Assembly: GCA_024654305.1 (NCBI GenBank)
Contig: JANLIU010000041.1
Coordinates: forward strand, 1-24,000
Source: Candidatus Parcubacteria bacterium
GTDB taxonomy: Bacteria > Patescibacteriota > Minisyncoccia > Phycocordibacterales > Phycocordibacteraceae
Length of the DNA: 24,000 nucleotides
Direction of reading: 5' to 3'
The translations under genes were made by a program, and so were the position numbers. Under the pieces are notes generated by a model. That model saw only the letters and a list, made by a program, of their open reading frames with translations, searched no databases and was not told the origin of the DNA. Below, piece by piece: positions 1-11,447 of the stretch. Each line of letters begins with the position of its first letter. Position 1 is the stretch's first letter.

Positions 1-135
1 GTGCATCACGCGGTCGAGTTTGATGATGCCCGTCGCCTTATCTATCTCATACTTATTATGAGACCCTTTCGGTATCTCGATGACGACGTTCATCTCTTCC
101 TTCGTGCCCGGGTCAATATCGTGCAGTAGGTTCAT
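1..135 (-). CDS. ppa: Inorganic pyrophosphatase (family I), N-terminal 45 codons; continues past the window start
   Basis: My translation of the minus strand from ATG at 135-133 gives [45 protein letters not shown]. The VVIEIPxGSxxKYEIDKxxGxxxLDR block is the hallmark N-terminus of soluble PPases. Too short to appear in the ORF track. Confidence 0.8.
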
Positions 136-150
136 AGAAGCAAGTATAGC

Positions 151-1515
151 TCATTCGTCTTTCGCTTTGTCGCGATCTTCCTCTTTATCGGCGACGGTCT
201 CGTCGCCAGCTGGAAGTTCCGTGAGTTCCTCTTCAGCTGGAAGCTCGGTTACTTCCGGAATCACATTCTCAATGTTCTCGATACTCTCAGTCGGCATGAT
301 TCCAATCGCTTCAGCAGGTGATTCTTCAGCCGGCGCCATAGCAACCGTCTCACCATCGGACTCGGCGACTTCAGAACCGCCGGTAGAAATGATGTCGATA
401 TTCCAACCAGTGAGCTTCGCAGCGAGGCGCACGTTCTGACCGCCGCGCCCGATGGCGAGCGACTGCTCATCCTCGGCGACCGTCACGGTTGCGCGGTGGT
501 CGGCTTCATCAAGCACGACTTCTATCGGGGTGGCGGGGGAGAGAGCCTCCTTCACGAATTCTTTTGCGTCGTCGTTCCATTCGATGATGTCGATACGTTC
601 GCCACCGAGCTCGCTCATCACGGTAGAAACGCGCACACCGCGCTGGCCGACCAGTGAGCCGACCGGGTCCACATGAGGATCAGTCGAGGCGAGCGCTATC
701 TTAGTGCGGCTACCCGGCTCGCGCGCAAGTGCCTTCACTTCAATGGCGCCACTGGCAAGTTCGGGCGCTTCCATTTCAAAAAGCTTCACGACGAACTTCG
801 GATGTGCACGAGAAAGACGCAGGTACACGCCGCGGAAACCCTCGTCCACCGCATAAAGGTACGCGCGAATACGCTCACCCATGCGATACCGCTCGCCCGG
901 TATCTGCTCCTCGTAGGGAATGATGCCGGTCGTACGACCGAGGTCGACGAATATCGCCCCGCGCTCCATGCGTTGGACGATACCCGACACGATCTGGCCC
1001 TTCTTCTCGCCGAATTCCTCCATCATGGAGAGCTTTTCGGCCTCGCGCACCTTCTGGATGACGACCTGCTTGGCAGTTTGTGCGGCAATGCGGCCGAAAT
1101 CGTCCTGTGGTTCAAGCGGGAAAATAATTTCTTCGCCCACGGTGGCGCCGCGCTTAATGAGCTTCGCGTTCTCAAGAAGGATGTGCTTTTCCGTGTCGAA
1201 ACGGGGCAACTCACCCTCGGCGAGCTGTTCTTCATCGGCATGATAGGCATGCGTGTGCATATGTTCCTCGGGAATCTCTTCGCCCTCGGCAGGGAAACGC
1301 ACCGTTGTGTCGTCCACGACGGTTTTTACTTGTTCAAAGGAGATGGTGCCGGTATTGAGGTCGAGCTTTGCGTGGACGACTTGTCCGCGCTTGCCGTATT
1401 CGCGCTTGTAGGCGGTCGCCATCGCGCTTTCGATGGCTTCTATCATCGTCGGGCGGCTGATGCCCCGGTCCTCGAATTCCCCGAGCACTGCATTGATGGT
1501 TTTGAGGTCTATCAT
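151..1515 (-). CDS. nusA: Transcription termination/antitermination factor NusA
   Basis: ORF 151..1611 (-). S1 domain (SGIVQRMERGAIFVDLG), KH1 (VDPVGSLVGQRGVRV) and KH2 (LAIGRGGQNVRLAAKLTGWNIDI), followed by an acidic tail. Start trimmed to MIDLKTINAVLGE (ATG 1515-1513), because the upstream 32 codons run through the promoter and leader. Confidence 0.92.
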   Translation of the reverse strand: MIDLKTINAVLGEFEDRGISRPTMIEAIESAMATAYKREYGKRGQVVHAKLDLNTGTISFEQVKTVVDDTTVRFPAEGEEIPEEHMHTHAYHADEEQLAEGELPRFDTEKHILLENAKLIKRGATVGEEIIFPLEPQDDFGRIAAQTAKQVVIQKVREAEKLSMMEEFGEKKGQIVSGIVQRMERGAIFVDLGRTTGIIPYEEQIPGERYRMGERIRAYLYAVDEGFRGVYLRLSRAHPKFVVKLFEMEAPELASGAIEVKALAREPGSRTKIALASTDPHVDPVGSLVGQRGVRVSTVMSELGGERIDIIEWNDDAKEFVKEALSPATPIEVVLDEADHRATVTVAEDEQSLAIGRGGQNVRLAAKLTGWNIDIISTGGSEVAESDGETVAMAPAEESPAEAIGIMPTESIENIENVIPEVTELPAEEELTELPAGDETVADKEEDRDKAKDE

Positions 1516-1536
1516 ATGGATTGTGTATGTCGCTCT

Positions 1537-1562
1537 TTTTATAAAGAAAGCCCCGAAGGGGC
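1537..1562 (-). promoter_or_regulatory. Terminator-like hairpin in the nusA 5' leader (possible attenuator)
   Basis: The minus-strand RNA reads GCCCC-UUCG-GGGC followed by UUUCUUUAUAAAAAG. It lies between the predicted nusA promoter and the ATG at 1515. Confidence 0.45.
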
Positions 1563-1577
1563 AATCACGTGCGGGGA

Positions 1578-1605
1578 AGTATACCAGATGCTTCGTGCGC
1601 GTCAA
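1578..1605 (-). promoter_or_regulatory. Sigma70-type promoter for nusA
   Basis: Minus strand has TTGACG (1605-1600), a 16-nt spacer, then TATACT (1583-1578), about 60 nt upstream of the nusA ATG. Confidence 0.55.
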
Positions 1606-1626
1606 TAACACACCTAGAACACGGAC

Positions 1627-1653
1627 TTGACACTAAATCAACAATAGTATAAC
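1627..1653 (+). promoter_or_regulatory. Candidate promoter for the RAMP-like gene and possibly the whole downstream locus
   Basis: TTGACA (1627-1632), then TATAAC (1648-1653) after a short 15-nt spacer. Divergent from the nusA promoter. Confidence 0.4.
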
Positions 1654-1729
1654 ATTTCTCTCGGCTATATGGCATTCCGCCATCGTGCTTCAGTACCTTC
1701 AACCAACCTACAGACAAGGAGAAGTTCGC

Positions 1730-2341
1730 ATGAAAACGTTCAAAATCCGCTGTGCTGGTATCTCGCCCCTGCTGATGGACCAAATGTCGAAGGCAACTCT
1801 GGAGTCGCTCGCCACCGGCGTGCGCCTGCAGGTCGCCAAGGACCGTCCCGCCGAAGACGTCGCTAAGGAGAAAATCTACCGCGACCCGAACGGCCGCATC
1901 GCCCTCCCCGCCGAGATGCTCTTCGCTGCGCTCGTCGGAGCTGGCAGGAACGTCAAGATCGGCAAGAAAGGCGTCAGCACCGCGACCACCACCCAGCTCC
2001 CGGACTTCCTGTCCATCGCGGAGTCGCATCTGCCGCTCACCAACATCCCCGCGAACGCCAACGGTGCCGAGAAAGACTTCTGGGCCGCCGACATGCGCAA
2101 AGGGATGGGCTACAACGGCAAGACGCCGACCGCCGTCGCAATCATCCGGCCGAAGTTCCCGAACTGGGAATTCGAGGTCACGGTGAAGCTCGACGAGAAG
2201 AAAGCCGGGCAAGACACGGTGATGGCGCTCTTCCAGAACGCCGGCTCCACGCAAGGACTCGGTTCGTTCCGCCCGAACAAAAAAGGCATGTTCGGACGCT
2301 TCGAGGTCGCCGAGATGAAAGAAGTCAAAGCGGCCGCGTAG
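1730..2341 (+). CDS. Hypothetical 203-aa protein with RAMP/RRM-like sequence features (possible RNA-binding protein)
   Basis: ORF 1685..2341 trimmed to MKTFKIR (ATG 1730), which has AAGGAGAAG 8 nt upstream. N-terminal strand plus SPLLM, a LPAEMLFAALVGAGR segment, and a C-terminal glycine-rich loop GLGSFRPNKKGMFGRFEV. These resemble the Cas5/6/7 RAMP pattern, judged by eye only. Confidence 0.75.
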   Translation: MKTFKIRCAGISPLLMDQMSKATLESLATGVRLQVAKDRPAEDVAKEKIYRDPNGRIALPAEMLFAALVGAGRNVKIGKKGVSTATTTQLPDFLSIAESHLPLTNIPANANGAEKDFWAADMRKGMGYNGKTPTAVAIIRPKFPNWEFEVTVKLDEKKAGQDTVMALFQNAGSTQGLGSFRPNKKGMFGRFEVAEMKEVKAAA

Positions 2342-2360
2342 TAACTCGGCTCTGTCGGGG

Positions 2361-2394
2361 ACGGGGGTCGAAAGGCTCCCGTTTGTTTTTTATT
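2361..2394 (+). terminator. Intrinsic terminator after the 203-aa gene
   Basis: ACGGGGGUC-GAAA-GGCUCCCGU forms 9 bp (two G-U pairs) with a GNRA loop, followed by UUGUUUUUUAUU. Confidence 0.7.
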
Positions 2395-2448
2395 GCGTAC
2401 ATTACTGAAGAGCGAACTATCGTGCTCTATACGTCCACTAGACTGTCG

Positions 2449-2526
2449 AGCTGGGGCAAATGAAAATTTGTCCCGCTGTTCGGGAAATGTGTATTTCCCC
2501 TGATGAGCTCGAAAGAGCGAAAACAG
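2449..2526 (+). ncRNA. Hammerhead ribozyme H1 (type III) with 5' clamp hairpin
   Basis: AGC-U-GGGGCAAAU/AUUUGUCCC-GCU hairpin, then GUUC with predicted cleavage after C2481. Stem I GGGAAAU/AUUUCCC, core CUGAUGA, stem II GCUC-GAAA-GAGC, then GAAA-ACAG pairing with CUGU (stem III). Confidence 0.9.
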
Positions 2527-2584
2527 TGTTTCAATAGAGTCTTCTAGTGCTAACTTCATTTCAGTTACCTACAGTACTGTGCAG

Positions 2585-2690
2585 AGTTGGGAGTTCTTCG
2601 GGACTCCCACTGTTCTCCCGATGTGCGTCGGGACTGATGAATCCCCGCCTCCGTTCCACTTCGGACAGGCAGGCGAAAGGACGAAAACAG
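2585..2690 (+). ncRNA. Hammerhead ribozyme H2, variant with a 31-nt insertion in loop II
   Basis: Clamp AGU-U-GGGAGUUC-UUCG-GGACUCCC-ACU (AGU/ACU covaries with AGC/GCU). Cleavage predicted after C2615. Stem I UCCCGA/UCGGGA, core CUGAUGA. Stem II UCC...GGA carries an inserted hairpin (CGCCU...AGGCG), and position 10.1 is A opposite C. Confidence 0.6.
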
Positions 2691-2753
2691 AAATGTTCTG
2701 GTGCGAAGTATGGCACCCTGTTGTGTTGTAGCCTTAGCTCTTCTGAAGTGCAG

Positions 2754-2828
2754 GTCGGAGCTTGCTCCGACAACTTAAGTGCATTCTTACGAGCGCACTT
2801 AAGGCAGTGCTTTCGAAAGAGAGTGCTG
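2754..2828 (+). ncRNA. Module B copy B1: conserved three-hairpin RNA of unknown class
   Basis: Hairpin 1 GUCGGAGC-UUG-CUCCGAC. Hairpin 2 CUUAAGUGC...GCACUUAAG with an apical UUC-UUAC-GAG. Hairpin 3 GCAGUGCUUUC-GAAA-GAGAGUGCUGU. Confidence 0.7.
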
Positions 2829-2886
2829 TAATCCAGTTAACTACTATTCTCTGTTTTAGCCCGCTGTTCTCTCTGTTATTGTATAG

Positions 2887-2963
2887 AGCTGGGGATTCCT
2901 TGCGAATCCCCGCTGTTCGGGAAGTATGGGCTTCCCCTGATGAGCTCGAAAGAGCGAAAACAG
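2887..2963 (+). ncRNA. Hammerhead ribozyme H3 (type III) with 5' clamp hairpin
   Basis: Clamp GGGGAUUC/GAAUCCCC. Cleavage after C2918. Stem I GGGAAG/CUUCCC, CUGAUGA, stem II GCUC-GAAA-GAGC, GAAAACAG. Confidence 0.9.
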
Positions 2964-3061
2964 ATGTTCTAGAAATGAAAGAGTGGTAACGGCCTACACT
3001 CCGCTGTCCTAGGCTGGTCCAAACCACTGCTGACTAGAGTGTCTCCCCCACTCCACTACAG

Positions 3062-3136
3062 GTCGGGGCCTGCTCCGACACCTTAAGTAAATTCGAGGGA
3101 GTTTATTTAAGGCGGTGCTTTCGAAAGAGAGTGTTG
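3062..3136 (+). ncRNA. Module B copy B2
   Basis: Hairpin 1 GUCGGGGC-CUG-CUCCGAC. Hairpin 2 CUUAAGUAAA/UUUAUUUAAG, which covaries with B1. Hairpin 3 GCGGUGCUUUC-GAAA-GAGAGUGUUGC. Confidence 0.7.
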
Positions 3137-3196
3137 CAAATTAAAGTGTGTTCCGCTGGCCTGGTCCATTGTTCGTTTCTCCGGGGTCCACTAAAG

Positions 3197-3271
3197 GGCT
3201 GGGGATTTGTAAAATCCCCGCTGTTCCACGGATGTGAGTCCGTGCTGATGATTCCGAAAGGATGAAAACAG
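3197..3271 (+). ncRNA. Hammerhead ribozyme H4, variant with a U:U pair at 10.1/11.1
   Basis: Clamp GGGGAUUU/AAAUCCCC. Cleavage after C3226. Stem I CACGGA/UCCGUG (covaries). CUGAUGA-UUCC-GAAA-GGAU-GAAAACAG, so the usual G10.1-C11.1 pair is replaced by U/U and the copy may be impaired. Confidence 0.6.
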
Positions 3272-3328
3272 AATCCAGTTACGTGCAGTTACCTCAACTG
3301 TTCTCAAGTTTTCTCCCGTAGACTGCAG

Positions 3329-3406
3329 AGCTGGGATTCTCGCAAAAGAATCCCGCTGTTCGCGGAATGAATGTTCCGCCTGATGAGTCGGAAACGACGA
3401 AAACAG
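3329..3406 (+). ncRNA. Hammerhead ribozyme H5 (type III) with 5' clamp hairpin
   Basis: Clamp GGGAUUCU/AGAAUCCC. Cleavage after C3361. Stem I GCGGAA/UUCCGC, CUGAUGA, stem II GUCG-GAAA-CGAC, GAAAACAG. Confidence 0.9.
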
Positions 3407-3470
3407 ATATCGGCATGCTGTAGGCTTATGCGGAGTTCTCTGTAGTATGGTCAACTCCAGTACTGTCCCG

Positions 3471-3546
3471 GTCGGGGATTCGTCCCCGACACTTAAGTAA
3501 ATTCGAGAGAGTTTATTTAAGGCAGTGCTTTCGAAAGAGAGTGCTG
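3471..3546 (+). ncRNA. Module B copy B3
   Basis: Hairpin 1 GUCGGGGA-UUCG-UCCCCGAC. Hairpin 2 CUUAAGUAAA/UUUAUUUAAG. Hairpin 3 GCAGUGCUUUC-GAAA-GAGAGUGCUGU. Confidence 0.7.
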
Positions 3547-3610
3547 TGAATCAAGTGCCCCTGTGTACAGTATTGTATTCTGCGTTGCACCAAACTCGTG
3601 TGGAGTAAGG

Positions 3611-3686
3611 AGCTGGGGCGAAGTAATTCGCCCCGCTGTTCGCGAGATGTGAGTCTCGCCTGATGAGTCCGAAAGGACGAAAACAG
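3611..3686 (+). ncRNA. Hammerhead ribozyme H6 (type III) with 5' clamp hairpin
   Basis: Clamp GGGGCGAA-GUAA-UUCGCCCC. Cleavage after C3641. Stem I GCGAGA/UCUCGC, CUGAUGA, stem II GUCC-GAAA-GGAC, GAAAACAG. Confidence 0.9.
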
Positions 3687-3749
3687 AAATTAAGTTAAGT
3701 TATGTCGAGTTTAGTACACTAATCACCTCTGCTGCCAGGTTGAGTACAG

Positions 3750-3825
3750 AGCTGGGGCAAAGCAATTTGCTCCGCTGTTCGGAAGATGTATGTCTTCCCT
3801 GATGAGCTCGAAAGAGCGAAAACAG
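3750..3825 (+). ncRNA. Hammerhead ribozyme H7 (type III), immediately upstream of the helicase RBS
   Basis: Clamp GGGGCAAA-GCAA-UUUGCUCC. Cleavage after C3780. Stem I GGAAGA/UCUUCC, CUGAUGA, stem II GCUC-GAAA-GAGC, GAAAACAG. Ends 21 nt before the AAGGAG at 3847. Confidence 0.9.
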
Positions 3826-3859
3826 TTTTGATCTTTGAATCACTACAAGGAGAACTAAT

Positions 3860-5638
3860 GTGGAACATCTCGATCCAGTGCGGTTTTTCCCGCGCAATCG
3901 GTACTCGGCAGTGCTGGGTAATCAAAAGTCTGCATTCAACTTCATCAAAGAAAGCGCCGCGAGCATCCTGGTGCTTGAATGTCCGACGGGAACGGGTAAA
4001 ACCGCCATCGGCTATTCGTATCTGCGGGCCATGCTCGCAAGTGGAGTGAAGCAACCCTTCTACCTCGTGCCAAACAAGACGCTCGCCGAACAAGTGAAAG
4101 GGCTTCATCCTGATGTGCACGCGGTCTACGGGCGGAACGAGCATCCGTGCTTGTTCTATCCGGGAGAAAATCTGCGTGCCGACGAGATACCGTGCTCATT
4201 GCTTCAAGAATGCCCGCACCGCGTCAACCAGGAAACTGGCGAAACGAAGGAGTCGGACGCAGAACGCTGTCCGTACCTGCAACAAAAGTACGAAGCAAAG
4301 CAGGGCAGAGGCATTATCGTCGCAACGCACGCGTTCTACCTCTACTCGGTCTTCTTCGCGAAAGAGTTCGAGCCCGGAGCGGTCGTCATTGACGAAGCGC
4401 ACGGCATCGCGAAGTCTATCCGGTCGGTACTTGAATTTCATATTACCGACTGGAATCTGGGGCGAATGGTGGAGCTCTTAGCTACCATCCTCTCAAGCCA
4501 GGCCGAGGTGCTCGACACCTTCCGTAAGCGGATGATCGCAATCATCAAGGCCAAAGAGGCGTCTAAGAAGACGATTCTCGAGGCCGATGAGATCAGGGAA
4601 CTCCTTGACCTCACGAACGCAATCGATACGCGCGCGGTTGATGCCGAGATTCGGGCGGCCATAGCCGTTGGGCTGGTCGATCGGAAGAAAGACCGTCTAG
4701 CATTAAAGCAACTCGAAATTCTTGGCCGCGATCTACGGATGTACATGCGGTCGTTTGAGTTCGCTCTGCCTACCGAAGCACGCCACCCTCTCAACTTCAC
4801 CTTCGCTTTCTGGAAGCGCGAGCTCGAAGAAGGGAAGCGGGTTCAGTATGAACTCGTGGTGAAGTCGTATTACGTCGCACCGTTGGTGAAGAAGATGCTC
4901 CCCAAGAACGTGCTCGCCTACTCGGCGACTATCGGCAATCCGGAGATTTTCAGCCATGAGACGGGGATTAAGGGAGAGTTTCTTTCCCTGCCGTCCACCT
5001 TCTCGTCTGACAATACTCGGATATTCATGCCGACGGACACGCCGAACTTGTCGGTCAAGGAACGCAATCGTCGTGATAAGACGAAATCGCTTCGTATGAT
5101 CGCCAAAGCGTGTGCAACGTTTGCGAAGAAAGGCATCCGCTCGCTGGTCGTCGTCGCATCAAATGAGGAACGTCAAAAATTCCTCATGCTCGCAGTCGAG
5201 GAGGGTGTGAAAGCGCTTTCCTATGGCGAAGGAGTCACTCCGCGCGCATGCGCAAAGCGATTCCGCGAGGGTGAAGGCGATGTACTCGTCGGCACTGACT
5301 CGAATTACGGCGAAGGTGTGGATCTGCCGAAAGGCATCGCACCGGTCATCTTCTACTACCGCCCGAGCTATCCGCGCCCTGACGACCCTGCATCGGTCTT
5401 TGAGGAACAGCGCTTCGGCGGCCAGCGCTGGCATGTCTGGAATTGGCGGGTGATCATTGGTCTTTTGCAGGTCCGTGGTCGCAATATCCGCTCTGTTGAA
5501 GATACTGGGGTAACATTCCTGATATCTCAGCAGTTCCGGCGCTTCGCTTATGGTTCGCTCCCCGAGTGGCTCAAGCCGGCGTATGTCGGCGGCAAGACAT
5601 TCGAGGAGTGCGTGAAGGACACGGTCAAAATGTTATAG
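3860..5638 (+). CDS. XPD/Rad3/DinG-family SF2 helicase with a predicted 4-Cys Fe-S domain (592 aa)
   Basis: GTG start at 3860, 7 nt after AAGGAG. Walker A CPTGTGKT and DEAH box VIDEAHG. Four Cys lie between motifs Ia and II (HPC, IPC, ECP, RCP), as in XPD/DinG Fe-S domains. C-terminal motifs VLVGTDSNYGEGVDLP and LLQVRGRNIRSVEDTG. Confidence 0.85.
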   Translation: MEHLDPVRFFPRNRYSAVLGNQKSAFNFIKESAASILVLECPTGTGKTAIGYSYLRAMLASGVKQPFYLVPNKTLAEQVKGLHPDVHAVYGRNEHPCLFYPGENLRADEIPCSLLQECPHRVNQETGETKESDAERCPYLQQKYEAKQGRGIIVATHAFYLYSVFFAKEFEPGAVVIDEAHGIAKSIRSVLEFHITDWNLGRMVELLATILSSQAEVLDTFRKRMIAIIKAKEASKKTILEADEIRELLDLTNAIDTRAVDAEIRAAIAVGLVDRKKDRLALKQLEILGRDLRMYMRSFEFALPTEARHPLNFTFAFWKRELEEGKRVQYELVVKSYYVAPLVKKMLPKNVLAYSATIGNPEIFSHETGIKGEFLSLPSTFSSDNTRIFMPTDTPNLSVKERNRRDKTKSLRMIAKACATFAKKGIRSLVVVASNEERQKFLMLAVEEGVKALSYGEGVTPRACAKRFREGEGDVLVGTDSNYGEGVDLPKGIAPVIFYYRPSYPRPDDPASVFEEQRFGGQRWHVWNWRVIIGLLQVRGRNIRSVEDTGVTFLISQQFRRFAYGSLPEWLKPAYVGGKTFEECVKDTVKML

Positions 5639-5691
5639 AGTAGCGTTCTGTGTCGTGTCCTGCTCCTGTGGTTCTCTAACGTCACCTACGG

Positions 5692-5780
5692 GGCGGCCTC
5701 TGTCAGTAATGACATTGGTCGCCACTTAAGTGCATTCGCAAGAGTGCATTTAAGATAGTCCTTTTGCAAAAGAGGATTGC
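5692..5780 (+). ncRNA. Module B copy B4 (divergent, in the helicase 3' UTR)
   Basis: Hairpin 1 is replaced by the longer GGCGGCC...GGUCGCC enclosing GUCA-GUAA-UGAC. Hairpin 2 CUUAAGUGCA/UGCAUUUAAG with apical UUC-GCAA-GAG. Hairpin 3 UAGUCCUUUU-GCAA-AAGAGGAUUG has a different sequence but the same fold. Confidence 0.6.
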
Positions 5781-5862
5781 GAACGAAGTGTCGTGCTCTT
5801 TCGTCAAGTAAAATATTCAACTCTCTCGTGCATTGTCGTGACTTATCGCGAACTAATCTAAA

Positions 5863-5940
5863 GAGCTGGGACTTTCTCGTAAGGTCCCGCTGTTCGGGAA
5901 GTGTGAGCTTCCCCTGATGAGTCCGAAAGGACGAAAACAG
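5863..5940 (+). ncRNA. Hammerhead ribozyme H8 (type III) with 5' clamp hairpin
   Basis: Clamp GGGACUUU/AAGGUCCC. Cleavage after C5895. Stem I GGGAAG/CUUCCC, CUGAUGA, stem II GUCC-GAAA-GGAC, GAAAACAG. Confidence 0.9.
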
Positions 5941-6019
5941 CAAACATCGTTATCTATTCTGGTGTTTTCTGTTGCCAAGCGTCCTACTGTTGGACATCGT
6001 ACGCAATGCCACAGTGCAG

Positions 6020-6096
6020 GTCGGGACTTCGGTTCCGACACTTAAGTACATTCTCGTAAGTGTACTTAAGGCAGTGCTTTCTCAAGAGAGCGCCGC
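6020..6096 (+). ncRNA. Module B copy B5
   Basis: Hairpin 1 GUCGGGAC-UUCG-GUUCCGAC. Hairpin 2 CUUAAGUACA/UGUACUUAAG. Hairpin 3 GCAGUGCUUUC-UCAA-GAGAGCGCCGC (one A/C mismatch). Confidence 0.65.
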
Positions 6097-6153
6097 AAAT
6101 GTGGTTACGTGGACTAATGTCGAGTTCTCTTCACCAAGCTAGACCTCTCTACG

Positions 6154-6229
6154 GGATGGGGATTCGCGAGAATCCCTGCTGTTCGGGAAGTGTGCACTTC
6201 CCCTGATGAGCCGGAAACGGCGAAAACAG
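6154..6229 (+). ncRNA. Hammerhead ribozyme H9 (type III), clamp base slightly degenerate
   Basis: Clamp GGGGAUUC-GCGA-GAAUCCCU, with GGAU in place of AGCU at the base. Cleavage after C6184. Stem I GGGAAG/CUUCCC, CUGAUGA, stem II GCCG-GAAA-CGGC, GAAAACAG. Confidence 0.85.
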
Positions 6230-6303
6230 AGCATTACTCTAGAGTGAATTACAGTTCTGTATTGCACGGCTGACTCCACTGCGATAGTCTGTTCTACCCC
6301 GCA

Positions 6304-6381
6304 GGTCGGAACTCCGGTTCCGACAACTTAAATGTATTCGCGAGAGTACATTTAAGGCGGTGCTTTCGAAAGAGAGTGCTG
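6304..6381 (+). ncRNA. Module B copy B6
   Basis: Hairpin 1 GUCGGAAC-UCCG-GUUCCGAC. Hairpin 2 CUUAAAUGUA/UACAUUUAAG with apical UUC-GCGA-GAG. Hairpin 3 GCGGUGCUUUC-GAAA-GAGAGUGCUGC. Confidence 0.7.
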
Positions 6382-6449
6382 CAATCCACTTGAGTGTCCT
6401 AGTGTGGCGTTCTCTGCGTTTCTGTGAGTTCCACTTTTCTCCTGTATAG

Positions 6450-6527
6450 AGCTGGGATTCTTTTCGAAGAATCCCGCTGTTCGCGGAATGAATGTTCCGC
6501 CTGATGAGCTCGAAAGAGCGAAAACAG
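6450..6527 (+). ncRNA. Hammerhead ribozyme H10 (type III) with 5' clamp hairpin
   Basis: Clamp GGGAUUCUU-UUCG-AAGAAUCCC. Cleavage after C6482. Stem I GCGGAA/UUCCGC, CUGAUGA, stem II GCUC-GAAA-GAGC, GAAAACAG. Confidence 0.9.
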
Positions 6528-6582
6528 CATCCCAGCAGAGTAGAGTGAGTCGGAGTACACTGTCGCACAGTAAATTCCTCTA

Positions 6583-6658
6583 GGCTGACTTTCTAGCCAC
6601 CACTTAAGTGCATTCTCACGAGTGTATTTAAGGCAGTGCTTTCGTAAAGAGAGTGTTG
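6583..6658 (+). ncRNA. Module B copy B7 (weak hairpin 1)
   Basis: Hairpin 1 is reduced to GGCU...AGCC. Hairpin 2 CUUAAGUGCA/UGUAUUUAAG. Hairpin 3 GCAGUGCUUUC-GUAAA-GAGAGUGUUGC. Confidence 0.6.
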
Positions 6659-6737
6659 CAAATCTGTAGGATCTACTATCCTGTTGCGTCCTGCAGTACA
6701 CTGTCGTGACCTGCATCCCTACCAATGTTCTCTACCG

Positions 6738-6773
6738 AGCTGACCCCGCCCACGGCGGGGTTGCTTTTTTGTG
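6738..6773 (+). terminator. Intrinsic terminator closing the second array, built on the clamp-hairpin frame
   Basis: AGCU-G-ACCCCGCC-CAC-GGCGGGGU-U-GCU-UUUUUUGUG. This has the same AGC...GCU framing as the hairpin preceding every hammerhead, but is followed by a U-tract instead of GUUC plus a ribozyme. Confidence 0.75.
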
Positions 6774-6808
6774 TATCAATATTACCGACCAGTGCTAGTA
6801 TTGAGAAC

Positions 6809-7672
6809 ATGCCTGAAAAACAGCCCATCTACCGTAATACCGAAGACGAACGCATGTACGAGAGTTCTTATTTGAAGCCAGAAGAAGCTCATGCGCGCGC
6901 CACGGGAGCTCTGGCTGAATATGAAATCAAGCCCGAGATATTCGCCGGCCTCTATGGCGAAGACATCCTCAAACGCGATGCCGACGAGGTGGCACACCTC
7001 GAAAAAGCTTTTGAAAAAACACCTGCAAAGATTTACGGCGATATCCTCGAGGCTGTCGCGTGCGAACACGGGGAATTAAGCGATTGGTTCGGATCGAAGT
7101 CGCAGGTCATCAAGACGGCCCGTTTTGACGATTACAAGAACAAGATTGATATGATTGTTGAAACGGAGTCGGACAATAACCAATTTTCCCATCTGGCTCT
7201 TGGTATTGATGTCACGTTCGGGAGTCGGGACTTGCATAAAAAGTTTGATGCGATAAAAGCGAACATAGACGGAGGGCGACTCGGGCAAGTAAAATATTTC
7301 CATTCAGACCGTCAACATATCACCGGGCGCTTGAGGAAGATCCCGCAGGTGGTCGTCGGAGTCGAGATCGAGAGAGTGAAGGAGCTCGGTCTCTTGTGGA
7401 TGAATCGGCGGAATAAAGAGCTCGCTGAACACCCGGTGCAGATGGCAATTCTTGAAGAATCGGCATTACAGCTAAAAACATTTGCTGAATACGCAAAAAG
7501 CATCGGTAAAAATGATCTCACTGCCATCTTTGAGAGAGAATTGCAAAAAATAAATGAGATGCTGGAGGAGAAGAGGGAAGCCGGCATCATGAGCCTAGAA
7601 CAGGATAAGGTTTTTGAAGAGATAGAAAGGAATCTCGCCTCGTTTGCCACTCCCGCCACCGCACAAATTTAA
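6809..7672 (+). CDS. Hypothetical protein (287 aa), no family recognised
   Basis: ORF 6725..7672 trimmed to MPEKQPIY (ATG 6809), because the first 28 codons overlap the array terminator. TAGTAT sits 7 nt upstream of the ATG. The sequence is charged and helix-rich. Confidence 0.6.
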   Translation: MPEKQPIYRNTEDERMYESSYLKPEEAHARATGALAEYEIKPEIFAGLYGEDILKRDADEVAHLEKAFEKTPAKIYGDILEAVACEHGELSDWFGSKSQVIKTARFDDYKNKIDMIVETESDNNQFSHLALGIDVTFGSRDLHKKFDAIKANIDGGRLGQVKYFHSDRQHITGRLRKIPQVVVGVEIERVKELGLLWMNRRNKELAEHPVQMAILEESALQLKTFAEYAKSIGKNDLTAIFERELQKINEMLEEKREAGIMSLEQDKVFEEIERNLASFATPATAQI

Positions 7673-7727
7673 TAAACAAAAAGAAAGCCACTCCGAAGAG
7701 CAGCTTTGGGCAAAGAGCAAGGTGGCT
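7673..7727 (-). terminator. Possible terminator for the minus-strand gene 7731..8207
   Basis: Minus-strand AGCCAC...GUGGCU stem with a structured interior, followed by UUUCUUUUUGUUUA. The large loop makes this tentative. Confidence 0.35.
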
Positions 7728-7730
7728 GGT

Positions 7731-8207
7731 TCAGGCAGAAGAGTTCAGAACTCCGCCGAGATGAGCTTCTCCGGTAGAGACTGTGTTCTTGGATTTGGAT
7801 GCGACTTCCTTCGGCTCGGCAAACCTGAAGAGATCGCCGGTCTCAGCGATGGATGTGTCCAAGCACAATGTCCAATCGCTACAAAACACGAACGGTTTGT
7901 GAACGAACACCGGATATTGCCGCAAGATCTCGTTCCGGAAGAGGCGCCCAACGATGTCACAGAGGTCCACCTTCATCGCAAACGCGTCTGCATCTTTTTG
8001 CGGGCTCAGCTTCTGGCATTCCAGGTCCAGCATGTGCTGGAGCGTGTAGAGGCGTTTGATCTTGTGTCCTGCTTCGCCGACCGCAACATGCTGCTTTTCG
8101 CGCTGCTGTAATGGCGCGATGAATTGCTTTGCCGAGATGGCCGCGAATCTGCCGTTTATTTCTGACAAGATTCCGACGGCGTTCGTTGCACTTTTGATAT
8201 TTTCCAT
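7731..8207 (-). CDS. Hypothetical protein (158 aa)
   Basis: ORF 7731..8288 (-) trimmed to MENIKSATNAV (ATG 8207), which has GGAAAGGAA upstream. Its composition looks more protein-like than the overlapping + ORF 7644..8111. Confidence 0.5.
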   Translation of the reverse strand: MENIKSATNAVGILSEINGRFAAISAKQFIAPLQQREKQHVAVGEAGHKIKRLYTLQHMLDLECQKLSPQKDADAFAMKVDLCDIVGRLFRNEILRQYPVFVHKPFVFCSDWTLCLDTSIAETGDLFRFAEPKEVASKSKNTVSTGEAHLGGVLNSSA

Positions 8208-8354: not shown

Positions 8355-10103
8355 ATGCACGTTTCGGAAGGCGAGCTGAAAGAGTTCATCACTGATTCGG
8401 GCCTCGTCGCCAAGAAAGAGATAGATGCGGCAGACGAGGAGGCGAAAAAGAAAGGGCAGTCGCTCGGCGATATCCTCGTATCGCGCGGTTCACTCACCGA
8501 GGACGCGCTCCGGCGTATCCAGGCGTATGTGCTCGGCATCCCGTTCGTCAATCTGAAAGACCACCACATCCCGGTCGACGTGCTCTCGCTCATTCCGGAA
8601 CCGATTGCCCGCACGCACAACATCATTGCGTATAAAAAAGGCGATGATTCACTTGAAGTGGCGATGCTCGATGTAGAGGACCTCGCCTCCATTGATTCAG
8701 TGCGTAAAAAAACGGGGCTGAAAATATTATCGCGCCTCACCGACACCGAGAGCATCAAGTATGCGCTCCTGCAATACCAAAAATCGCTCAAGGATGAATT
8801 CGGCGATATCATTTCGGCCGAAGCGGGCAAAATAAAAGTCATCGCAGAAGGCAACAAAGACCTCTCGGGTGACGACCTCAAGAAAATGGCGGAGGACTTG
8901 CCCATCGTGCGCATCGTGGACACACTCCTGCGCCACGCCATCGTGCAAGGCGCGTCCGATATTCACATAGAGCCGATGGAGGACCAAGTGATGGTGCGCT
9001 ACCGCATTGATGGCATCCTGCATGATGCGATGACACTGCCAAAAGCTGCGGCGGCCGGCATCGTCGCGCGCATCAAGGTGCTTTCCAATTTGAAACTCGA
9101 CGAGAAGCGCCTGCCGCAAGACGGACGTTTCAAAATGGAGACTGAAGCAGACCGCGTGTCGTTCCGCGTGTCCATTCTCCCGACCTTTTTCGGCGAGAAA
9201 ACCGTTATGCGTCTTCTACGCGAGACCGGCGAAGGGTTCACACTCGATGTGTTGGGTTTGCACGGAGAGAACATGGAGCGCATTCACCATGCACTGAAAC
9301 AGACGACGGGTATTATTCTCGTTTCCGGACCAACGGGCTCCGGAAAAACGACGACGCTTTACACCATGCTCGATATTCTGAACCGACCAGATGTGAATAT
9401 CTCAACCGTCGAAGATCCTATCGAGTATCAGATGAAGCGCGTGAACCAAACGCAAGTGAATCCGCAAATAGGTTTCACATTCGCCAACGGACTCCGCTCG
9501 CTCGTGCGTCAGGACCCGGACATCATCATGGTCGGCGAGATACGCGACAGCGAGACGGCATCGCTCGCCATCAATGCCGCACTCACCGGTCACCTCGTAC
9601 TCTCGACCATCCACACCAATAGCGCCGCCGGCGCCATACCGCGCCTCATTGATATGGGCGTGGAGCCGTTCCTCCTTGTGTCGACCATCCGCGTCATCAT
9701 AGGGCAACGGCTCGTGCGGAAGCTCTGTGAAGGAAAGGAAGCATACACGCTTGATGCGACCACGCGCGCGAAAATCTCAAGCGAAGAGGGATTCAATATC
9801 GCGTTCAAAGCCCTAAAGGATGAGAAGCTTGTGAAAGCGGGGTCGACGCTCGATGACATCGCATTCTATCGGCCGGTACCGTCGCCTGAGTGCGTTGATG
9901 GATATAAAAGCCGCATCGGCATCCATGAAGTGCTCGCGGTGACGCCGACCATCCGCGAGATCATCCTCCATTCGAGTACGAGCGATGCTATCGAAGCGCA
10001 AGCGAAGAAGGAAGGAATGCTCACGATGCGCGAAGACGGTCTCTACAAAGCCGCGCGCGGCATCACCAGCCTTGAGGAAGTGCTCCGTGCCATATCCGAA
10101 TAG
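8355..10103 (+). CDS. pilB: Type IV pilus assembly ATPase PilB (GspE family)
   Basis: N-terminal T2SSE_N-like domain, Walker A GPTGSGKTTT and His box LTGHLVLSTIHTN. 582 aa. Confidence 0.9.
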   Translation: MHVSEGELKEFITDSGLVAKKEIDAADEEAKKKGQSLGDILVSRGSLTEDALRRIQAYVLGIPFVNLKDHHIPVDVLSLIPEPIARTHNIIAYKKGDDSLEVAMLDVEDLASIDSVRKKTGLKILSRLTDTESIKYALLQYQKSLKDEFGDIISAEAGKIKVIAEGNKDLSGDDLKKMAEDLPIVRIVDTLLRHAIVQGASDIHIEPMEDQVMVRYRIDGILHDAMTLPKAAAAGIVARIKVLSNLKLDEKRLPQDGRFKMETEADRVSFRVSILPTFFGEKTVMRLLRETGEGFTLDVLGLHGENMERIHHALKQTTGIILVSGPTGSGKTTTLYTMLDILNRPDVNISTVEDPIEYQMKRVNQTQVNPQIGFTFANGLRSLVRQDPDIIMVGEIRDSETASLAINAALTGHLVLSTIHTNSAAGAIPRLIDMGVEPFLLVSTIRVIIGQRLVRKLCEGKEAYTLDATTRAKISSEEGFNIAFKALKDEKLVKAGSTLDDIAFYRPVPSPECVDGYKSRIGIHEVLAVTPTIREIILHSSTSDAIEAQAKKEGMLTMREDGLYKAARGITSLEEVLRAISE

Positions 10104-10110
10104 TATGAGT

Positions 10111-10228
10111 CCCGTTAGAAATCGCGGACGCTTTGGTACAATACAGAACATGAGTTCGTTTATTAACGATAATCGGATAGGGTTCGGCCGCGGCATTTGC
10201 TGCGCGTCCGCGTCCTATTTCTAACGGG
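10111..10228. mobile_element. MITE-like palindromic element E1 (118 bp) between pilB and pilC
   Basis: Terminal inverted repeats CCCGTTAGAAAT+CGCGGACGC and GCGTCCGCG+(tcct)+ATTTCTAACGGG. Flanked by direct ATGAG / ATGAG. Its core is homologous to E2. Confidence 0.7.
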
Positions 10229-11446
10229 ATGAGATTTCGCATTACGGTACGAAAAGAAGGTGCACCGGATGATAAACGGGTCGTTGAGGCGCCATCGCGT
10301 TTTGATGTGTATGAACAAATACGGAATGAAGGCGGTTTCGTCACGGCGATTGAAGAACTGCATGGATTTAGCTTGGATGCGCTTTCTCGTTTCAACATAT
10401 CTATCGGCACCGGCATCAAGCGCATGGAGATCATCCGCACGGCGAAGAATCTTTCCGCCATGCTCTCCGCCGGCCTTTCCATCTCACGCGCGCTTTCGGT
10501 CATTGAACGGCAATCGAATAACAAACATTTGAAAGCAATAGCCACAGGTATCGCCGAATCGGTGAAGAAAGGTTCTTCATTCCACGAGGCACTCGCCATG
10601 CATCCGGATGTATTCCCGGAGATATTCGTCGCGATGGCGCGGGCGGGAGAAGAATCAGGCTCTCTGGCAGACTCGCTCACGGTCGTCGCGCTCCAGATGG
10701 AACGTTCCGAAGAACTCATACGCAAGATAAAAGGTGCAATGATCTATCCGGCGATCGTCATCACTGCGGTCGTTGTCGTGGGCATCCTCATGCTCATTTA
10801 CGTAGTGCCGACGTTGACCAGCACATTCACTTCCCTCGGGGTGAAGGTTCCGCTTGCCACACGCGTCATCGTGGCACTTTCAAATTTCATGGTCGCGAAT
10901 GTGATGCTCGTGCTTGTGTCCTTGTTTGCGATCGTGGTCGGCGGCATTCTTTTCGTTCGTTCAAAAATCGGGAATAGGATCGTCCTTGCTGTCGCACTTC
11001 ATATGCCGGTCATCAACGAGCTCGTGCGCGAGACGTACACCGCGCGCGCCGCGCGGACACTCTCATCGCTCCTCTCCGCGGGAGTGCCGGTGCTTGACGC
11101 ACTTTCAATAACCAAAGCCGTCGTGCATGCAGAATCATTCGCGGATGTCGTCGCTGAAGCTGAAGCGCATGTGAAAAAAGGGGAATTGCTTTCCACCGCG
11201 TTCAGCGAACATCCGAAATTATATCCGATATTGATGAGCGACATGCTCGCGGTAGGGGAGGAGACTGGCAAAGTCGCCGAGATGCTGAAACAAATCGCGG
11301 AATTCTATGAAGAGGATGTGGCGCAGAAGACGAAGGACCTCTCGACCGTCATTGAGCCGCTCCTCATGCTTGTCATCGGCGCGGCCGTCGGTATCTTTGC
11401 GGTCGCGGTAATCTCACCTATTTATCAGCTGTCATCGGCTATCTAG
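10229..11446 (+). CDS. pilC: Type IV pilus platform protein PilC (GspF family)
   Basis: 405 aa with two T2SSF-type repeats and polytopic TM segments. Sits immediately downstream of pilB. Confidence 0.9.
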   Translation: MRFRITVRKEGAPDDKRVVEAPSRFDVYEQIRNEGGFVTAIEELHGFSLDALSRFNISIGTGIKRMEIIRTAKNLSAMLSAGLSISRALSVIERQSNNKHLKAIATGIAESVKKGSSFHEALAMHPDVFPEIFVAMARAGEESGSLADSLTVVALQMERSEELIRKIKGAMIYPAIVITAVVVVGILMLIYVVPTLTSTFTSLGVKVPLATRVIVALSNFMVANVMLVLVSLFAIVVGGILFVRSKIGNRIVLAVALHMPVINELVRETYTARAARTLSSLLSAGVPVLDALSITKAVVHAESFADVVAEAEAHVKKGELLSTAFSEHPKLYPILMSDMLAVGEETGKVAEMLKQIAEFYEEDVAQKTKDLSTVIEPLLMLVIGAAVGIFAVAVISPIYQLSSAI

Positions 11447-11447
11447 C

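What the first reader, a model, noticed from the sequence alone, without database searches (positions are those of the whole stretch)
3750..5940. The helicase mRNA is formatted as an array unit and would be excised by ribozymes on both sides
H7 cleaves after C3780, 66 nt upstream of the AAGGAG RBS and 79 nt before the GTG start. No terminator follows the helicase stop codon (5636-5638). Instead module B4 and hammerhead H8 (cleavage after C5895) follow. The predicted helicase transcript, 3781-5895 (2115 nt), therefore has the same layout as the ~290-nt units. That layout is a 5' hammerhead remnant, a payload, module B, a spacer, and a 3' clamp hairpin. The CDS occupies the position of the first spacer. 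Either helicase expression is coupled to ribozyme activity, or the gene is cargo of the repeat unit.
Basis: partly seen in the sequence, partly recalled or inferred. Interest (0 to 1): 0.65.

Follow-up and report, generated by a model that had tools for sequence, protein, structure and literature searches.

The report
Helicase gene inside a ribozyme-cut guide-RNA array
The helicase gene is the accessory gene of a recently described RNA-guided (VIPR) system in a tiny Patescibacteria bacterium, and it sits inside a guide-RNA array that self-cleaving hammerhead ribozymes cut apart, so its mRNA is released like one more array unit with guide-RNA repeats attached to its tail.

Summary
Ten type-III hammerheads lie on the + strand between two intrinsic terminators (2359-2394 and 6741-6773). 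H7 cuts after C3780, 79 nt before the GTG start. H8 cuts after C5895. No terminator-like site lies between the stop codon and H8.

This is a VIPR system (bioRxiv 10.64898/2026.04.26.720920). ORF 1730-2341 is a Vipr protein: its profile matches SUSP1 Vipr at E=4.5e-10, and its predicted fold matches Cas7-family RAMPs. The "spacers" are vrRNA tracts of 5-nt repeats, with a pyrimidine at position 3 in 91% of pentamers. The XPD/DinG-like helicase is the accessory gene.

A vipr homolog lies near the helicase in 52 of 58 Patescibacteria loci. Hammerheads occur in about 14 lineages; at least one other lineage (L053) appears to use a promoter and terminator for each unit.

The helicase is therefore a conserved system component, not cargo of a repeat. 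The CDS does not replace the first spacer. A repeat tract starts at the stop codon, and this is conserved across lineages (p~1e-18).

The preprint already reports hammerhead-interspersed arrays and helicase accessory genes. The possibly new detail is an accessory mRNA embedded in the array with guide repeats in its 3'UTR.

The parts
1730..2341 (+). vipr gene (203 aa): a Vipr/RAMP protein that binds the repeat tracts of vrRNAs
   Evidence: A profile of 23 homologs matches PDB 36pp_D 'SUSP1 Vipr protein' at E=4.5e-10 over the full length, with a shared GLGSFRP..FGRF loop. The single sequence gives E=2.3e-5. The AF2 model has pLDDT 88.7. Top Foldseek matches are Csm3, Cmr4 and type VII Cas7, at probability 1.0. 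A homolog lies next to the helicase in 52 of 58 loci.
2359..2394 (+). Intrinsic terminator after vipr; upstream boundary of the array
   Evidence: Stem of 11 pairs followed by a T-run. The hairpin is conserved in L001 and L079.
2475..2527 (+). Hammerhead H1 (cleavage after C2481)
   Evidence: Covariance model R1, 75.0 bits; Rfam 38.2 bits.
2609..2691 (+). Hammerhead H2 with a long insertion in stem II (cleavage after C2615)
   Evidence: R1 44 bits; python scan.
2912..2964 (+). Hammerhead H3 (cleavage after C2918)
   Evidence: R1 69.1 bits.
3220..3272 (+). Hammerhead H4, a variant with U10.1/U11.1 (cleavage after C3226)
   Evidence: R1 68.6 bits; alignment.
3355..3407 (+). Hammerhead H5 (cleavage after C3361)
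   Evidence: R1 72.4 bits.
3635..3687 (+). Hammerhead H6 (cleavage after C3641)
   Evidence: R1 75 bits.
3774..3826 (+). Hammerhead H7 (cleavage after C3780); it makes the 5' end of the helicase mRNA
   Evidence: R1 74.5 bits; Rfam 33.5 bits. Its 3' end lies 33 nt before the GTG start.
3847..3852 (+). AAGGAG ribosome-binding site, 7 nt before the GTG start
   Evidence: Read from the sequence. It is only weakly paired in the fold of 3781-3880.
3860..5638 (+). XPD/Rad3/DinG-like SF2 helicase (592 aa); the VIPR accessory (vap) gene
   Evidence: Pfam Helicase_C_2, DEAD and ResIII. Weak DinG, YoaA and rad3 matches. Archaeal XPD structures are the closest solved relatives. Walker A, DEAH and four cysteines are invariant or nearly invariant across 16 orthologs.
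5639..5690 (+). First vrRNA-like pentamer tract, starting at the helicase stop codon
   Evidence: Pentamers AGTAG CGTTC TGTGT CGTGT CCTGC TCCTG. This tract alone is not significant (4 of 10 GY pentamers, p=0.26); the support is comparative. The tract has diverged from L001 although the flanks are conserved. The same arrangement is seen across 57 loci.
5691..5786 (+). Module B4: three conserved hairpins that probably form a constant vrRNA tail
   Evidence: Repeat family with 7 copies. Consensus fold of 8 copies has 27 pairs, 7 of them with compensatory changes. Nearly invariant against L001.
5787..5861 (+). Second vrRNA-like tract in the helicase 3'UTR
   Evidence: In segment 5791-5862, all 14 pentamers have a pyrimidine at position 3, and 6 of 14 are GY pentamers (p=0.006).
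5863..5889 (+). Clamp hairpin that ends 7 nt before the H8 cleavage site; the 3'-terminal hairpin of the helicase fragment
   Evidence: Fold of 5636-5895 has z=-4.8. Most other hammerheads of this type also have a hairpin just upstream.
5889..5941 (+). Hammerhead H8 (cleavage after C5895); it makes the 3' end of the helicase mRNA
   Evidence: R1 74.6 bits; Rfam 39.1 bits.
6178..6230 (+). Hammerhead H9 (cleavage after C6184)
   Evidence: R1 69.5 bits.
6476..6528 (+). Hammerhead H10 (cleavage after C6482)
   Evidence: R1 75.2 bits.
2395..6775 (+). Whole hammerhead-interspersed vrRNA array. It holds short units of about 136 nt (tract plus clamp), long units of about 290 nt (tract, module B, tract, clamp), and the helicase unit.
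   Evidence: Repeat families. No 3-nt periodicity, so the array is non-coding. The dinucleotide GT is enriched 1.6-2.3 fold at lags 5 and 15, more weakly at lag 10 (1.1-1.8 fold). Pentamer consensus is W-S-Y-N-N.
6741..6773 (+). Intrinsic terminator that closes the array
   Evidence: Stem of 10 pairs, 7 of them G-C, followed by a T-run.

Best explanation
The window holds a chromosomal VIPR (Viral Interference Programmable Repeat) system of a Candidatus Kaiserbacteria (Patescibacteria) bacterium. It has three components: a vipr gene (1730-2341), a hammerhead-interspersed vrRNA array (about 2395-6775), and an XPD/DinG-like helicase gene (3860-5638) embedded in that array as the accessory gene.

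Inferred mechanism:
1. The array is transcribed as one long precursor that ends at the terminator at 6741-6773.
2. Ten type-III hammerheads cut themselves out co-transcriptionally.
3. Each released fragment starts with a 5'-OH hammerhead body. It carries one or two tracts of 5-nt repeats plus constant hairpins, and it ends in a clamp hairpin with a 2',3'-cyclic phosphate.
4. One fragment (3781-5895) is the helicase mRNA. H7 gives it a defined 79-nt leader. Its 3'UTR is a complete long unit whose first repeat tract begins at the stop codon.

By analogy with the characterised VIPR systems, Vipr protomers polymerise on the repeat tracts. The variable dinucleotides then specify a DNA target, and the helicase would act at the bound target.

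Shown here: the sequence features, ribozyme covariation, Vipr homology, and the conserved vipr-array-helicase synteny.

Inferred: a single transcript, actual cleavage, Vipr binding, and the role of the helicase.
For: Vipr identity:
- Profile E=4.5e-10 over the full length to SUSP1 Vipr.
- RAMP/Cas7 fold at Foldseek probability 1.0.
- The family has 6,266 representatives at E<=1e-3.

vrRNA tracts:
- The dinucleotide GT is enriched 1.6-4 fold at lags 5, 10 and 15 in most of the helicase-flanking arrays tested across diverse lineages, including the window. It is not enriched in the helicase CDS.
- The window pentamers have a pyrimidine at position 3 in 91% of cases.
- Orthologous loci L009 and L053 show canonical GGYNN repeats.
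- The preprint defines vrRNAs by GGY/NN repeats 'or a related consensus'. It reports hammerhead-interspersed arrays confirmed by sRNA-seq, and helicase accessory genes.

Hammerheads:
- Covariation and a conserved core.
- 48 hits in 59 sources, all on the helicase strand and none further than about 1.7 kb from the helicase gene.

Single transcription unit:
- Strong terminators occur only at the two ends of the array.
- No promoter-like site lies next to the CDS.

Conserved linkage:
- A vipr homolog is present in 52 of 58 helicase loci; in 45 it lies upstream on the same strand.
- The hammerhead 3' end lies 27-44 nt before the start codon in 9 of 13 lineages.
- A repeat tract begins within 55 nt of the helicase stop codon in most of 57 loci. 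At least 5 GY pentamers occur in 56% of loci against 3% of CDS control windows (p~1e-18).
- Between the window and L001 (92% identical helicases), module B and the hammerhead are conserved. The tracts have diverged.
Against: - There is no RNA data for this locus.
- The promoter of the array was not found. The 50 nt between the vipr terminator and H1 are not conserved.
- The window repeats are a degenerate W-S-Y-N-N consensus, not canonical GGY.
- No DNA target was found for any tract, either locally or as an exact match in IMG/VR.
- H2 and H4 lack the usual G10.1-C11.1 pair and may cleave poorly.
- The VIPR type could not be assigned, because the preprint's figures and data tables are not held as text.
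- In lineage L053 the helicase appears to have its own promoter. Ribozyme coupling is therefore lineage-specific, not essential to the system.
Confidence: 0.72

Rival explanations
1. The hammerheads are generic gene punctuation with no special link to the helicase. In these genomes a 'hairpin plus type-III hammerhead' module is a general device that defines the 3' end of the upstream RNA and insulates the 5' leader of the next gene, much like the engineered RiboJ insulator. On this view the helicase is just one of many genes treated this way.
For: A metagenome scan with the window-type hammerhead pattern found 103 loci. Only one of them carries the helicase and only that one carries Vipr. Most of these hammerheads also have a hairpin directly upstream. 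They precede diverse genes: a DEAH/HA2 helicase, a radical SAM protein, an AAA_28 protein and hypothetical proteins.
Against: This does not explain why ten ribozymes crowd into 4.3 kb here. It also does not explain the 5-nt repeat tracts and constant hairpins in the fragments between them, or why vipr, the array and the helicase stay together in lineages without hammerheads. It is compatible with the best explanation as a description of what the ribozyme does, but it is incomplete.
Confidence: 0.15
2. The helicase gene is cargo of a mobile or retrozyme-like repeat unit. The units flanked by hammerheads would be excised, possibly circularised by an RNA ligase, and would propagate. The helicase would have been captured inside one unit.
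For: The helicase fragment has the same ends and the same module order as the roughly 290-nt units. The array changes fast in copy number: 10 hammerheads in the window against 3 in L001, at 92% helicase identity.
Against: - The helicase is an ortholog held in the same synteny with vipr across lineages down to 43% identity, including arrays without ribozymes.
- No reverse transcriptase, transposase or integrase hit was seen among the ten window ORFs scanned; minus-strand and downstream ORFs were not scanned.
- Copies of a unit differ by covarying stems rather than being near-identical, so recent transposition is unlikely.
Confidence: 0.04
3. The helicase is transcribed independently. It would have its own unrecognised promoter and a non-canonical terminator, and the flanking ribozymes would process only the neighbouring small RNAs.
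For: In L053 each unit, and apparently the helicase too, has a promoter-like TTG..N17..TATAAT element and a hairpin plus U-run terminator. Patescibacteria promoters are poorly known, so the simple scan could miss one.
Against: Only 33 nt separate the 3' end of H7 from the GTG start, and there is no promoter-like match in 3642-3860. No hairpin plus U-run lies between 5638 and 5895. The tight 27-44 nt spacing between hammerhead and start codon recurs in 9 of 13 lineages.
Confidence: 0.08

Closest known systems
VIPR systems with hammerhead-interspersed vrRNA arrays (bioRxiv 10.64898/2026.04.26.720920; structures in 10.64898/2026.04.26.720927)
   Same: - A Vipr RAMP protein homologous to SUSP1 Vipr.
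- Guide RNAs built of 5-nt repeats followed by constant structured parts.
- A minimal locus of vipr plus one accessory gene.
- Hammerheads between the vrRNAs.
- Helicase accessory genes are reported for some types.
   Different: - The characterised systems (SUSP1, P. fulva) are phage-borne type II systems with DNA-binding accessory proteins and no ribozymes.
- This locus is chromosomal and lies in Patescibacteria. Neighbouring genes include type IV pilus, TIM and NusA genes.
- The repeat consensus here is W-S-Y-N-N.
- The accessory helicase gene lies inside the array, and guide repeats abut its stop codon.
- The text of the preprint does not mention Patescibacteria or an accessory mRNA flanked by ribozymes. 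Its figures could not be read.
Type IV-A CRISPR-Cas (Csf complex with the CasDinG helicase)
   Same: A Cas7-like RAMP that multimerises on a guide RNA is paired with an XPD/DinG-family helicase rather than a nuclease. This comparison rests on general knowledge of type IV systems; the fold match to Cas7 proteins is.
   Different: - There is no CRISPR array of identical direct repeats.
- No Cas5, Cas6 or Cas8-like genes were detected.
- The guide has a 5-nt gapped code instead of a contiguous spacer.
- The helicase is far below the DinG/YoaA equivalog cut-offs (58 bits against 598).
Engineered ribozyme-flanked guide RNAs and the RiboJ insulator (from general knowledge)
   Same: Self-cleaving ribozymes release guide RNAs or give an mRNA a defined leader that does not depend on upstream sequence.
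   Different: Those are synthetic designs. Here the arrangement is natural, uses one ribozyme type for both ends, and processes an mRNA and its guide RNAs from the same precursor.
Hammerheads flanking ORFs in bacterial and phage operons (surveys of about 2010-2011, from general knowledge)
   Same: Hammerheads in intergenic positions of polycistronic transcripts would cut out single-gene mRNAs.
   Different: Those cases are isolated ribozymes, mostly type II, with no associated guide-RNA units. Here they are type III, each preceded by a clamp hairpin, and ten occur in 4.3 kb.

Membership tests
VIPR system | A Vipr protein: a minimal RAMP (RRM core, G-loop, thumb) homologous to characterised Vipr proteins | tested here: met
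   Profile against PDB sequences: SUSP1 Vipr at E=4.5e-10, residues 1-199 aligned to 1-196. The AF2 model (pLDDT 88.7) matches Csm3, Cmr4 and type VII Cas7.
VIPR system | vrRNAs next to vipr with at least 4 tandem YNNGG (GGY/NN) repeats or a related consensus | tested here: met
   The window shows the related consensus W-S-Y-N-N, with runs of 4-8 pentamers matching G-Y at positions 2-3 per tract (out of about 10-18 pentamers per segment). GT is enriched at lags 5, 10 and 15. Orthologous loci L009 and L053 have canonical GGYNN repeats.
VIPR system | A constant structured 3' tail after the variable tract | tested here: inconclusive
   Module B (three hairpins) and the clamp hairpin are conserved or covary. 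Which of them is the tail, and whether a long unit yields one or two vrRNAs, is unknown.
VIPR system | A minimal locus of vipr plus one accessory (vap) gene, not associated with a CRISPR array | tested here: met
   A vipr homolog is present in 52 of 58 helicase loci. The ten window ORFs scanned gave no Cas family hit. The repeats in 1-8000 are not CRISPR-like.
VIPR system | vrRNA binds Vipr and guides DNA recognition through the NN dinucleotides with a 1-nt skip | tested here: inconclusive
   Binding cannot be tested with these tools. The target search by the 1-nt skip rule did no better than order-shuffled controls in 2.7 Mb of local sequence (both strands counted). It gave no exact hit in IMG/VR.
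Hammerhead ribozyme, type III | Conserved catalytic core (CUGANGA, GAAA, U16.1, H17 not G) with stem III open | tested here: met
   All 10 window copies have the core.
Hammerhead ribozyme, type III | Three helices supported by covariation | tested here: met
   95% of cells are paired and 14 of 16 pairs carry compensatory changes. Slid controls give 37-45%.
Hammerhead ribozyme, type III | Reaches the Rfam RF00008 gathering score | tested here: not met
   Scores are 30.7-39.1 bits against a cut-off of 48.5. The short 4-bp stem II with a GAAA loop and the 6-nt loop I differ from the Rfam seed. The custom model scores 44-75 bits.
Hammerhead ribozyme, type III | Self-cleavage at the predicted site | not testable with these tools
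   The preprint reports sRNA-seq confirmation only for other hammerhead-vrRNA arrays.
XPD/Rad3/DinG helicases (SF2, Fe-S) | Walker A, DEAH box, four-cysteine cluster and the Helicase_C_2 domain | tested here: met
   G44, G46, K47 and T48 of Walker A, the DEAH box at 178-181, and C97, C118 and C137 are invariant; C112 is nearly invariant. Helicase_C_2 scores 44.1 bits against a cut-off of 25.3.
XPD/Rad3/DinG helicases (SF2, Fe-S) | Orthology to DinG, YoaA or Rad3 (NCBIfam equivalog cut-offs) | tested here: not met
   Scores are 20-58 bits against cut-offs of 247-789. DEAD_2 scores 17 bits against 21. The helicase is a distinct Patescibacteria clade.
Type IV-A CRISPR-Cas | A CRISPR array of near-identical direct repeats, plus Cas5/Cas6/Cas8-like subunits | tested here: not met
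   The repeat families are covarying hairpins at 60-86% identity. The ten window ORFs scanned gave no Cas family hit.
Retrozyme / viroid-like circular RNA | Monomers flanked by hammerheads that circularise and replicate or retrotranspose | not testable with these tools
   Only the flanking by hammerheads is met. No reverse-transcriptase hit was seen among the scanned ORFs, and the units are not near-identical.

The most novel reading that the evidence does not exclude
The helicase mRNA is a bifunctional molecule. It encodes the accessory enzyme, and its 3'UTR is a guide-RNA precursor whose repeat tract begins at the stop codon. Vipr filaments that nucleate on the constant hairpins and grow 3' to 5' would then reach the end of the reading frame. 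This would couple helicase synthesis or mRNA stability to guide loading. It could act as feedback between effector and guide, or as co-assembly of the helicase with the ribonucleoprotein. The arrangement is conserved across Patescibacteria whether the units are punctuated by hammerheads or by terminators.
Probability: 0.2. Interest if true: 0.7.

Novelty: new member of a known kind. Interest (0 to 1): 0.45.

Why it matters
VIPR systems were described only in 2026 and are proposed to be ancestors of CRISPR RAMP effectors. Their helicase-bearing types have not been characterised. This locus and its roughly 55 Patescibacteria relatives offer three things:
- A compact, chromosomally conserved example in which guide RNAs and the accessory helicase mRNA come from one ribozyme-processed precursor.
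- A natural comparison between ribozyme punctuation and promoter/terminator punctuation of the same system.
- A conserved mRNA-guide fusion that suggests a testable regulatory link between the effector and its guides.

It also identifies the helicase flanked by ribozymes as a VIPR system component, not a stand-alone curiosity.

Tried and rejected
- Rfam at gathering threshold found nothing. The hammerheads only appear at the E-value threshold.
- There are no tRNA or tmRNA genes.
- A phage origin was rejected. Neighbouring genes are type II/IV secretion, pilin, TIM and NusA genes, and IMG/VR holds no window-type hammerhead.
- Coding potential of the array was rejected because it has no 3-nt periodicity.
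- I first thought the hammerheads were specific to the helicase. This was rejected: 102 of 103 metagenome loci with the same hammerhead type lack both the helicase and Vipr.
- I considered a TRAP-like ring protein, and a type IV CRISPR system, as explanations for the 5-nt periodicity and the DinG-like helicase. The Vipr match superseded both.
- Five hammerhead-free loci were searched against Rfam for another ribozyme class, and none was found.
- Target searches for 11 window tracts by the 1-nt skip rule did no better than order-shuffled controls. One exact-pattern IMG/VR scan was empty.
- No conserved promoter lies between the vipr terminator and H1.
- Literature searches for hammerhead plus Patescibacteria or CPR gave nothing relevant.
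- UniProt accessions of the Vipr homologs (A0A1F6DV40, A0A1G2IB87) are not among the five seeds named in the preprint.
Full report
**1. Checking the observation**

Read directly from the sequence, C3780 and C5895 are the cleavage-site nucleotides of two type-III hammerheads. AAGGAG lies at 3847-3852, the GTG start at 3860 and the stop at 5636-5638.

- The hammerhead core pattern occurs nine times on the + strand, against zero expected from shuffles.
- A tenth copy has a long insertion in stem II.
- Rfam's Hammerhead_3 model recognises seven copies, but at 30-39 bits, below its gathering score of 48.5. The default Rfam scan was therefore empty.

I collected 35 copies from the window and nine related lineages. 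In that alignment the three helices pair in 95% of cells, and 14 of 16 pairs show compensatory changes. Structures slid by 1-3 columns pair in only 37-45% of cells. The catalytic core is invariant or nearly so. A covariance model built from the alignment finds all ten window copies at 44-75 bits.

The only strong terminator-like sites in 2000-7200 are at 2359-2384 and 6741-6763, the two ends of the array. No promoter-like site lies between H6 and the helicase start. The arrays show no 3-nt periodicity, unlike the helicase CDS, so the small ORFs within them are spurious.

**2. Where the window comes from**

The helicase is 92% identical to a protein of a Candidatus Kaiserbacteria genome, and it has hundreds of 50-60% identical relatives in Patescibacteria. 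Neighbouring genes are type II/IV secretion ATPase and platform genes, a pilin gene and triosephosphate isomerase; relatives also have NusA, ClpP and ribosomal protein genes nearby. The locus is chromosomal, not phage.

The helicase has Helicase_C_2, DEAD and ResIII domains. Walker A, the DEAH box and four cysteines are invariant or nearly invariant. It gives weak matches to DinG, YoaA and Rad3, and archaeal XPD structures are its closest solved relatives. It is an XPD/DinG-like Fe-S helicase but not an ortholog of the named enzymes.

**3. The comparative survey**

I fetched 55 further Patescibacteria helicase loci from species-representative genomes, plus close relatives from metagenomes.

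- Hammerheads flank the helicase in about 14 lineages.
- All 48 model hits in 59 sources lie on the helicase strand, none further than about 1.7 kb from the helicase gene.
- In 9 of 13 lineages with an upstream copy, the ribozyme's 3' end lies only 27-44 nt before the start codon.
- Eight lineages also have a downstream copy, 165-710 nt after the stop.

The bracketing of the helicase by ribozymes is therefore conserved, not an accident of this genome.

Most helicase loci have no hammerhead and no other Rfam ribozyme. Many still have long non-coding arrays beside the helicase, 1-3.6 kb long. These arrays are made of repeated, covarying hairpins. In L053 each unit has its own promoter-like element and a hairpin plus U-run terminator, on both sides of the helicase.

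**4. What the 'spacers' are**

The variable stretches are not random. The dinucleotide GT recurs at lags 5, 10 and 15 at 1.6-4 times expectation in most of the arrays tested, including the window. It does not recur in the helicase CDS.

In the window, phased pentamers have a pyrimidine at position 3 in 91% of cases and G or C at position 2 in 79%. The consensus is W-S-Y-N-N. Loci L009 and L053 show canonical GGYNN repeats.

**5. The third component**

The 203-aa ORF upstream of the array (1730-2341) has no Pfam or NCBIfam match. A homolog of it is nonetheless present in 52 of 58 helicase loci, and in 45 it lies upstream on the same strand.

- The single sequence hits one PDB entry, 'SUSP1 Vipr protein'.
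- A profile of 23 homologs aligns with that entry end to end at E=4.5e-10, including the glycine-rich loop.
- The AlphaFold model (pLDDT 88.7) matches Csm3, Cmr4 and type VII Cas7 backbone subunits at probability 1.0.

The name led to two 2026 preprints describing VIPR systems. Their main points are:

- Vipr is a minimal RAMP that polymerises on vrRNAs made of 9-16 GGY/NN repeats followed by a constant tail.
- The NN dinucleotides read double-stranded DNA with a one-nucleotide skip.
- There are seven types.
- Array architectures include 'hammerhead ribozyme-interspersed arrays', confirmed by sRNA-seq.
- Types III-V carry accessory nucleases or helicases.

The 5-nt periodicity that I found independently is the vrRNA signature. 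The window is therefore a VIPR locus: vipr, a hammerhead-interspersed vrRNA array, and a helicase accessory gene.

**6. Back to the finding**

The helicase fragment (3781-5895) does have the layout of a long array unit, with one correction. The CDS does not replace the first tract.

- A repeat tract starts at the stop codon (5639-5690).
- It is followed by module B4 (three hairpins), a second tract of about 14 pentamers (5787-5861) and the clamp hairpin.
- The 3'UTR is strongly structured, with z=-4.8.
- Against the 92%-identical relative, module B and the ribozyme are conserved, two stems covary and the tracts have diverged. This is the pattern expected for constant and variable parts of a guide.

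Across 57 loci, the 55 nt beginning at the helicase stop codon hold 6.9 of 11 S-Y pentamers, against 4.1 in CDS controls. At least five GY pentamers occur in 56% of loci against 3% of controls (p~1e-18). A helicase mRNA fused to vrRNA repeats is therefore conserved with or without ribozymes.

**7. Mechanism**

The most likely mechanism is one precursor running from just after the vipr terminator to 6773, cut co-transcriptionally at ten sites. Each product begins with the folded hammerhead body and a 5'-OH. Each ends with a hairpin 7 nt from a 2',3'-cyclic phosphate.

The same 'hairpin then hammerhead' module is widespread in other contexts in metagenomes. Of 103 loci with the window-type ribozyme, only one carries the helicase and Vipr. 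The others precede diverse genes. The ribozyme is thus a general punctuation device that this VIPR lineage uses in place of a promoter and terminator for each unit.

Not shown here:
- cleavage itself;
- a single transcript;
- Vipr binding;
- the helicase's action at targets;
- any target, since searches by the skip rule gave nothing above controls.

**8. Novelty and verdict**

The kind of system is already described, including ribozyme-interspersed arrays and helicase accessory genes. Its 'expression coupled to ribozyme activity' idea is plausible for this lineage only.

Three points may go beyond the preprint's text: the conserved, chromosomal spread of the locus across diverse Patescibacteria; the accessory mRNA lying inside the array; and the conserved abutment of guide repeats to the helicase stop codon. 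The preprint's figures and data tables could not be read. The Vipr-like family is large, with 6,266 representatives at E<=1e-3.

I rate this a new member of a known kind, of moderate interest.

Noticed in passing
window 3220-3272 (H4); L012 5068-5120; L054 5182-5234 and 8140-8221: A recurrent hammerhead variant has U10.1/U11.1 instead of the usual G10.1-C11.1 pair at the base of stem II. It appears in three separate lineages. It may be a slow-cleaving form that has been deliberately kept.
   Followed up: no
window 2609-2691 (H2); L054 5880-5961 and 8140-8221; L033 5855-5955: Some hammerheads carry a 30-50 nt insertion in stem II. The window and L054 insertions begin with a similar CCCCGCCTCCG sequence. 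In L054 these variants are the two copies that bracket the helicase.
   Followed up: no
L071-L173 (metagenome contigs): About 100 contigs carry the same hammerhead type, each with a hairpin just upstream, but no Vipr and no XPD-like helicase. Downstream genes include DEAH/HA2 helicases (L101, L072), a radical SAM protein, an AAA_28 protein, and unknown proteins that share a C-terminal ...SLGDAFAKLGL motif. The host organisms were not identified.
   Followed up: partly
L053 3850-6000 and 7840-8460: In this hammerhead-free relative, each vrRNA unit has its own promoter-like element (TTGTAA..N..TATAAT-like) and a GGAGCG-stem-CGCUUUUU terminator. That terminator resembles the window's clamp hairpin (GAGCUGGGG..CCCCGCU). 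The ribozyme seems to have replaced the U-run terminator, or the reverse.
   Followed up: partly
L034, L041, L031, L038, L050: Five loci encode two vipr paralogs near the helicase, at 23-57% identity to the window protein.
   Followed up: no
L032 2750-5520: A very long array has at least 23 hairpins of the form GGTCAG-stem-GAAA-stem-CTGACAATT, most often 76-118 nt apart (commonly 86). They resemble the first hairpin of the window's module B (GGTCGG..CCGACA). In this locus vipr lies on the opposite strand.
   Followed up: no
window 2744-6668 (module B copies); B4 at 5691-5786 and L001 7838-7934: The module B copy linked to the helicase has an extended first hairpin with a nested GTCAGTAATGAC stem. 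The six other window copies lack this. The extension is conserved between the window and L001.
   Followed up: partly
window 8355-11834: A type II/IV secretion ATPase gene (T2SSE), a platform protein gene (T2SSF) and a pilin-like gene lie directly downstream of the VIPR locus. The same is true in L001. No functional link was examined.
   Followed up: no
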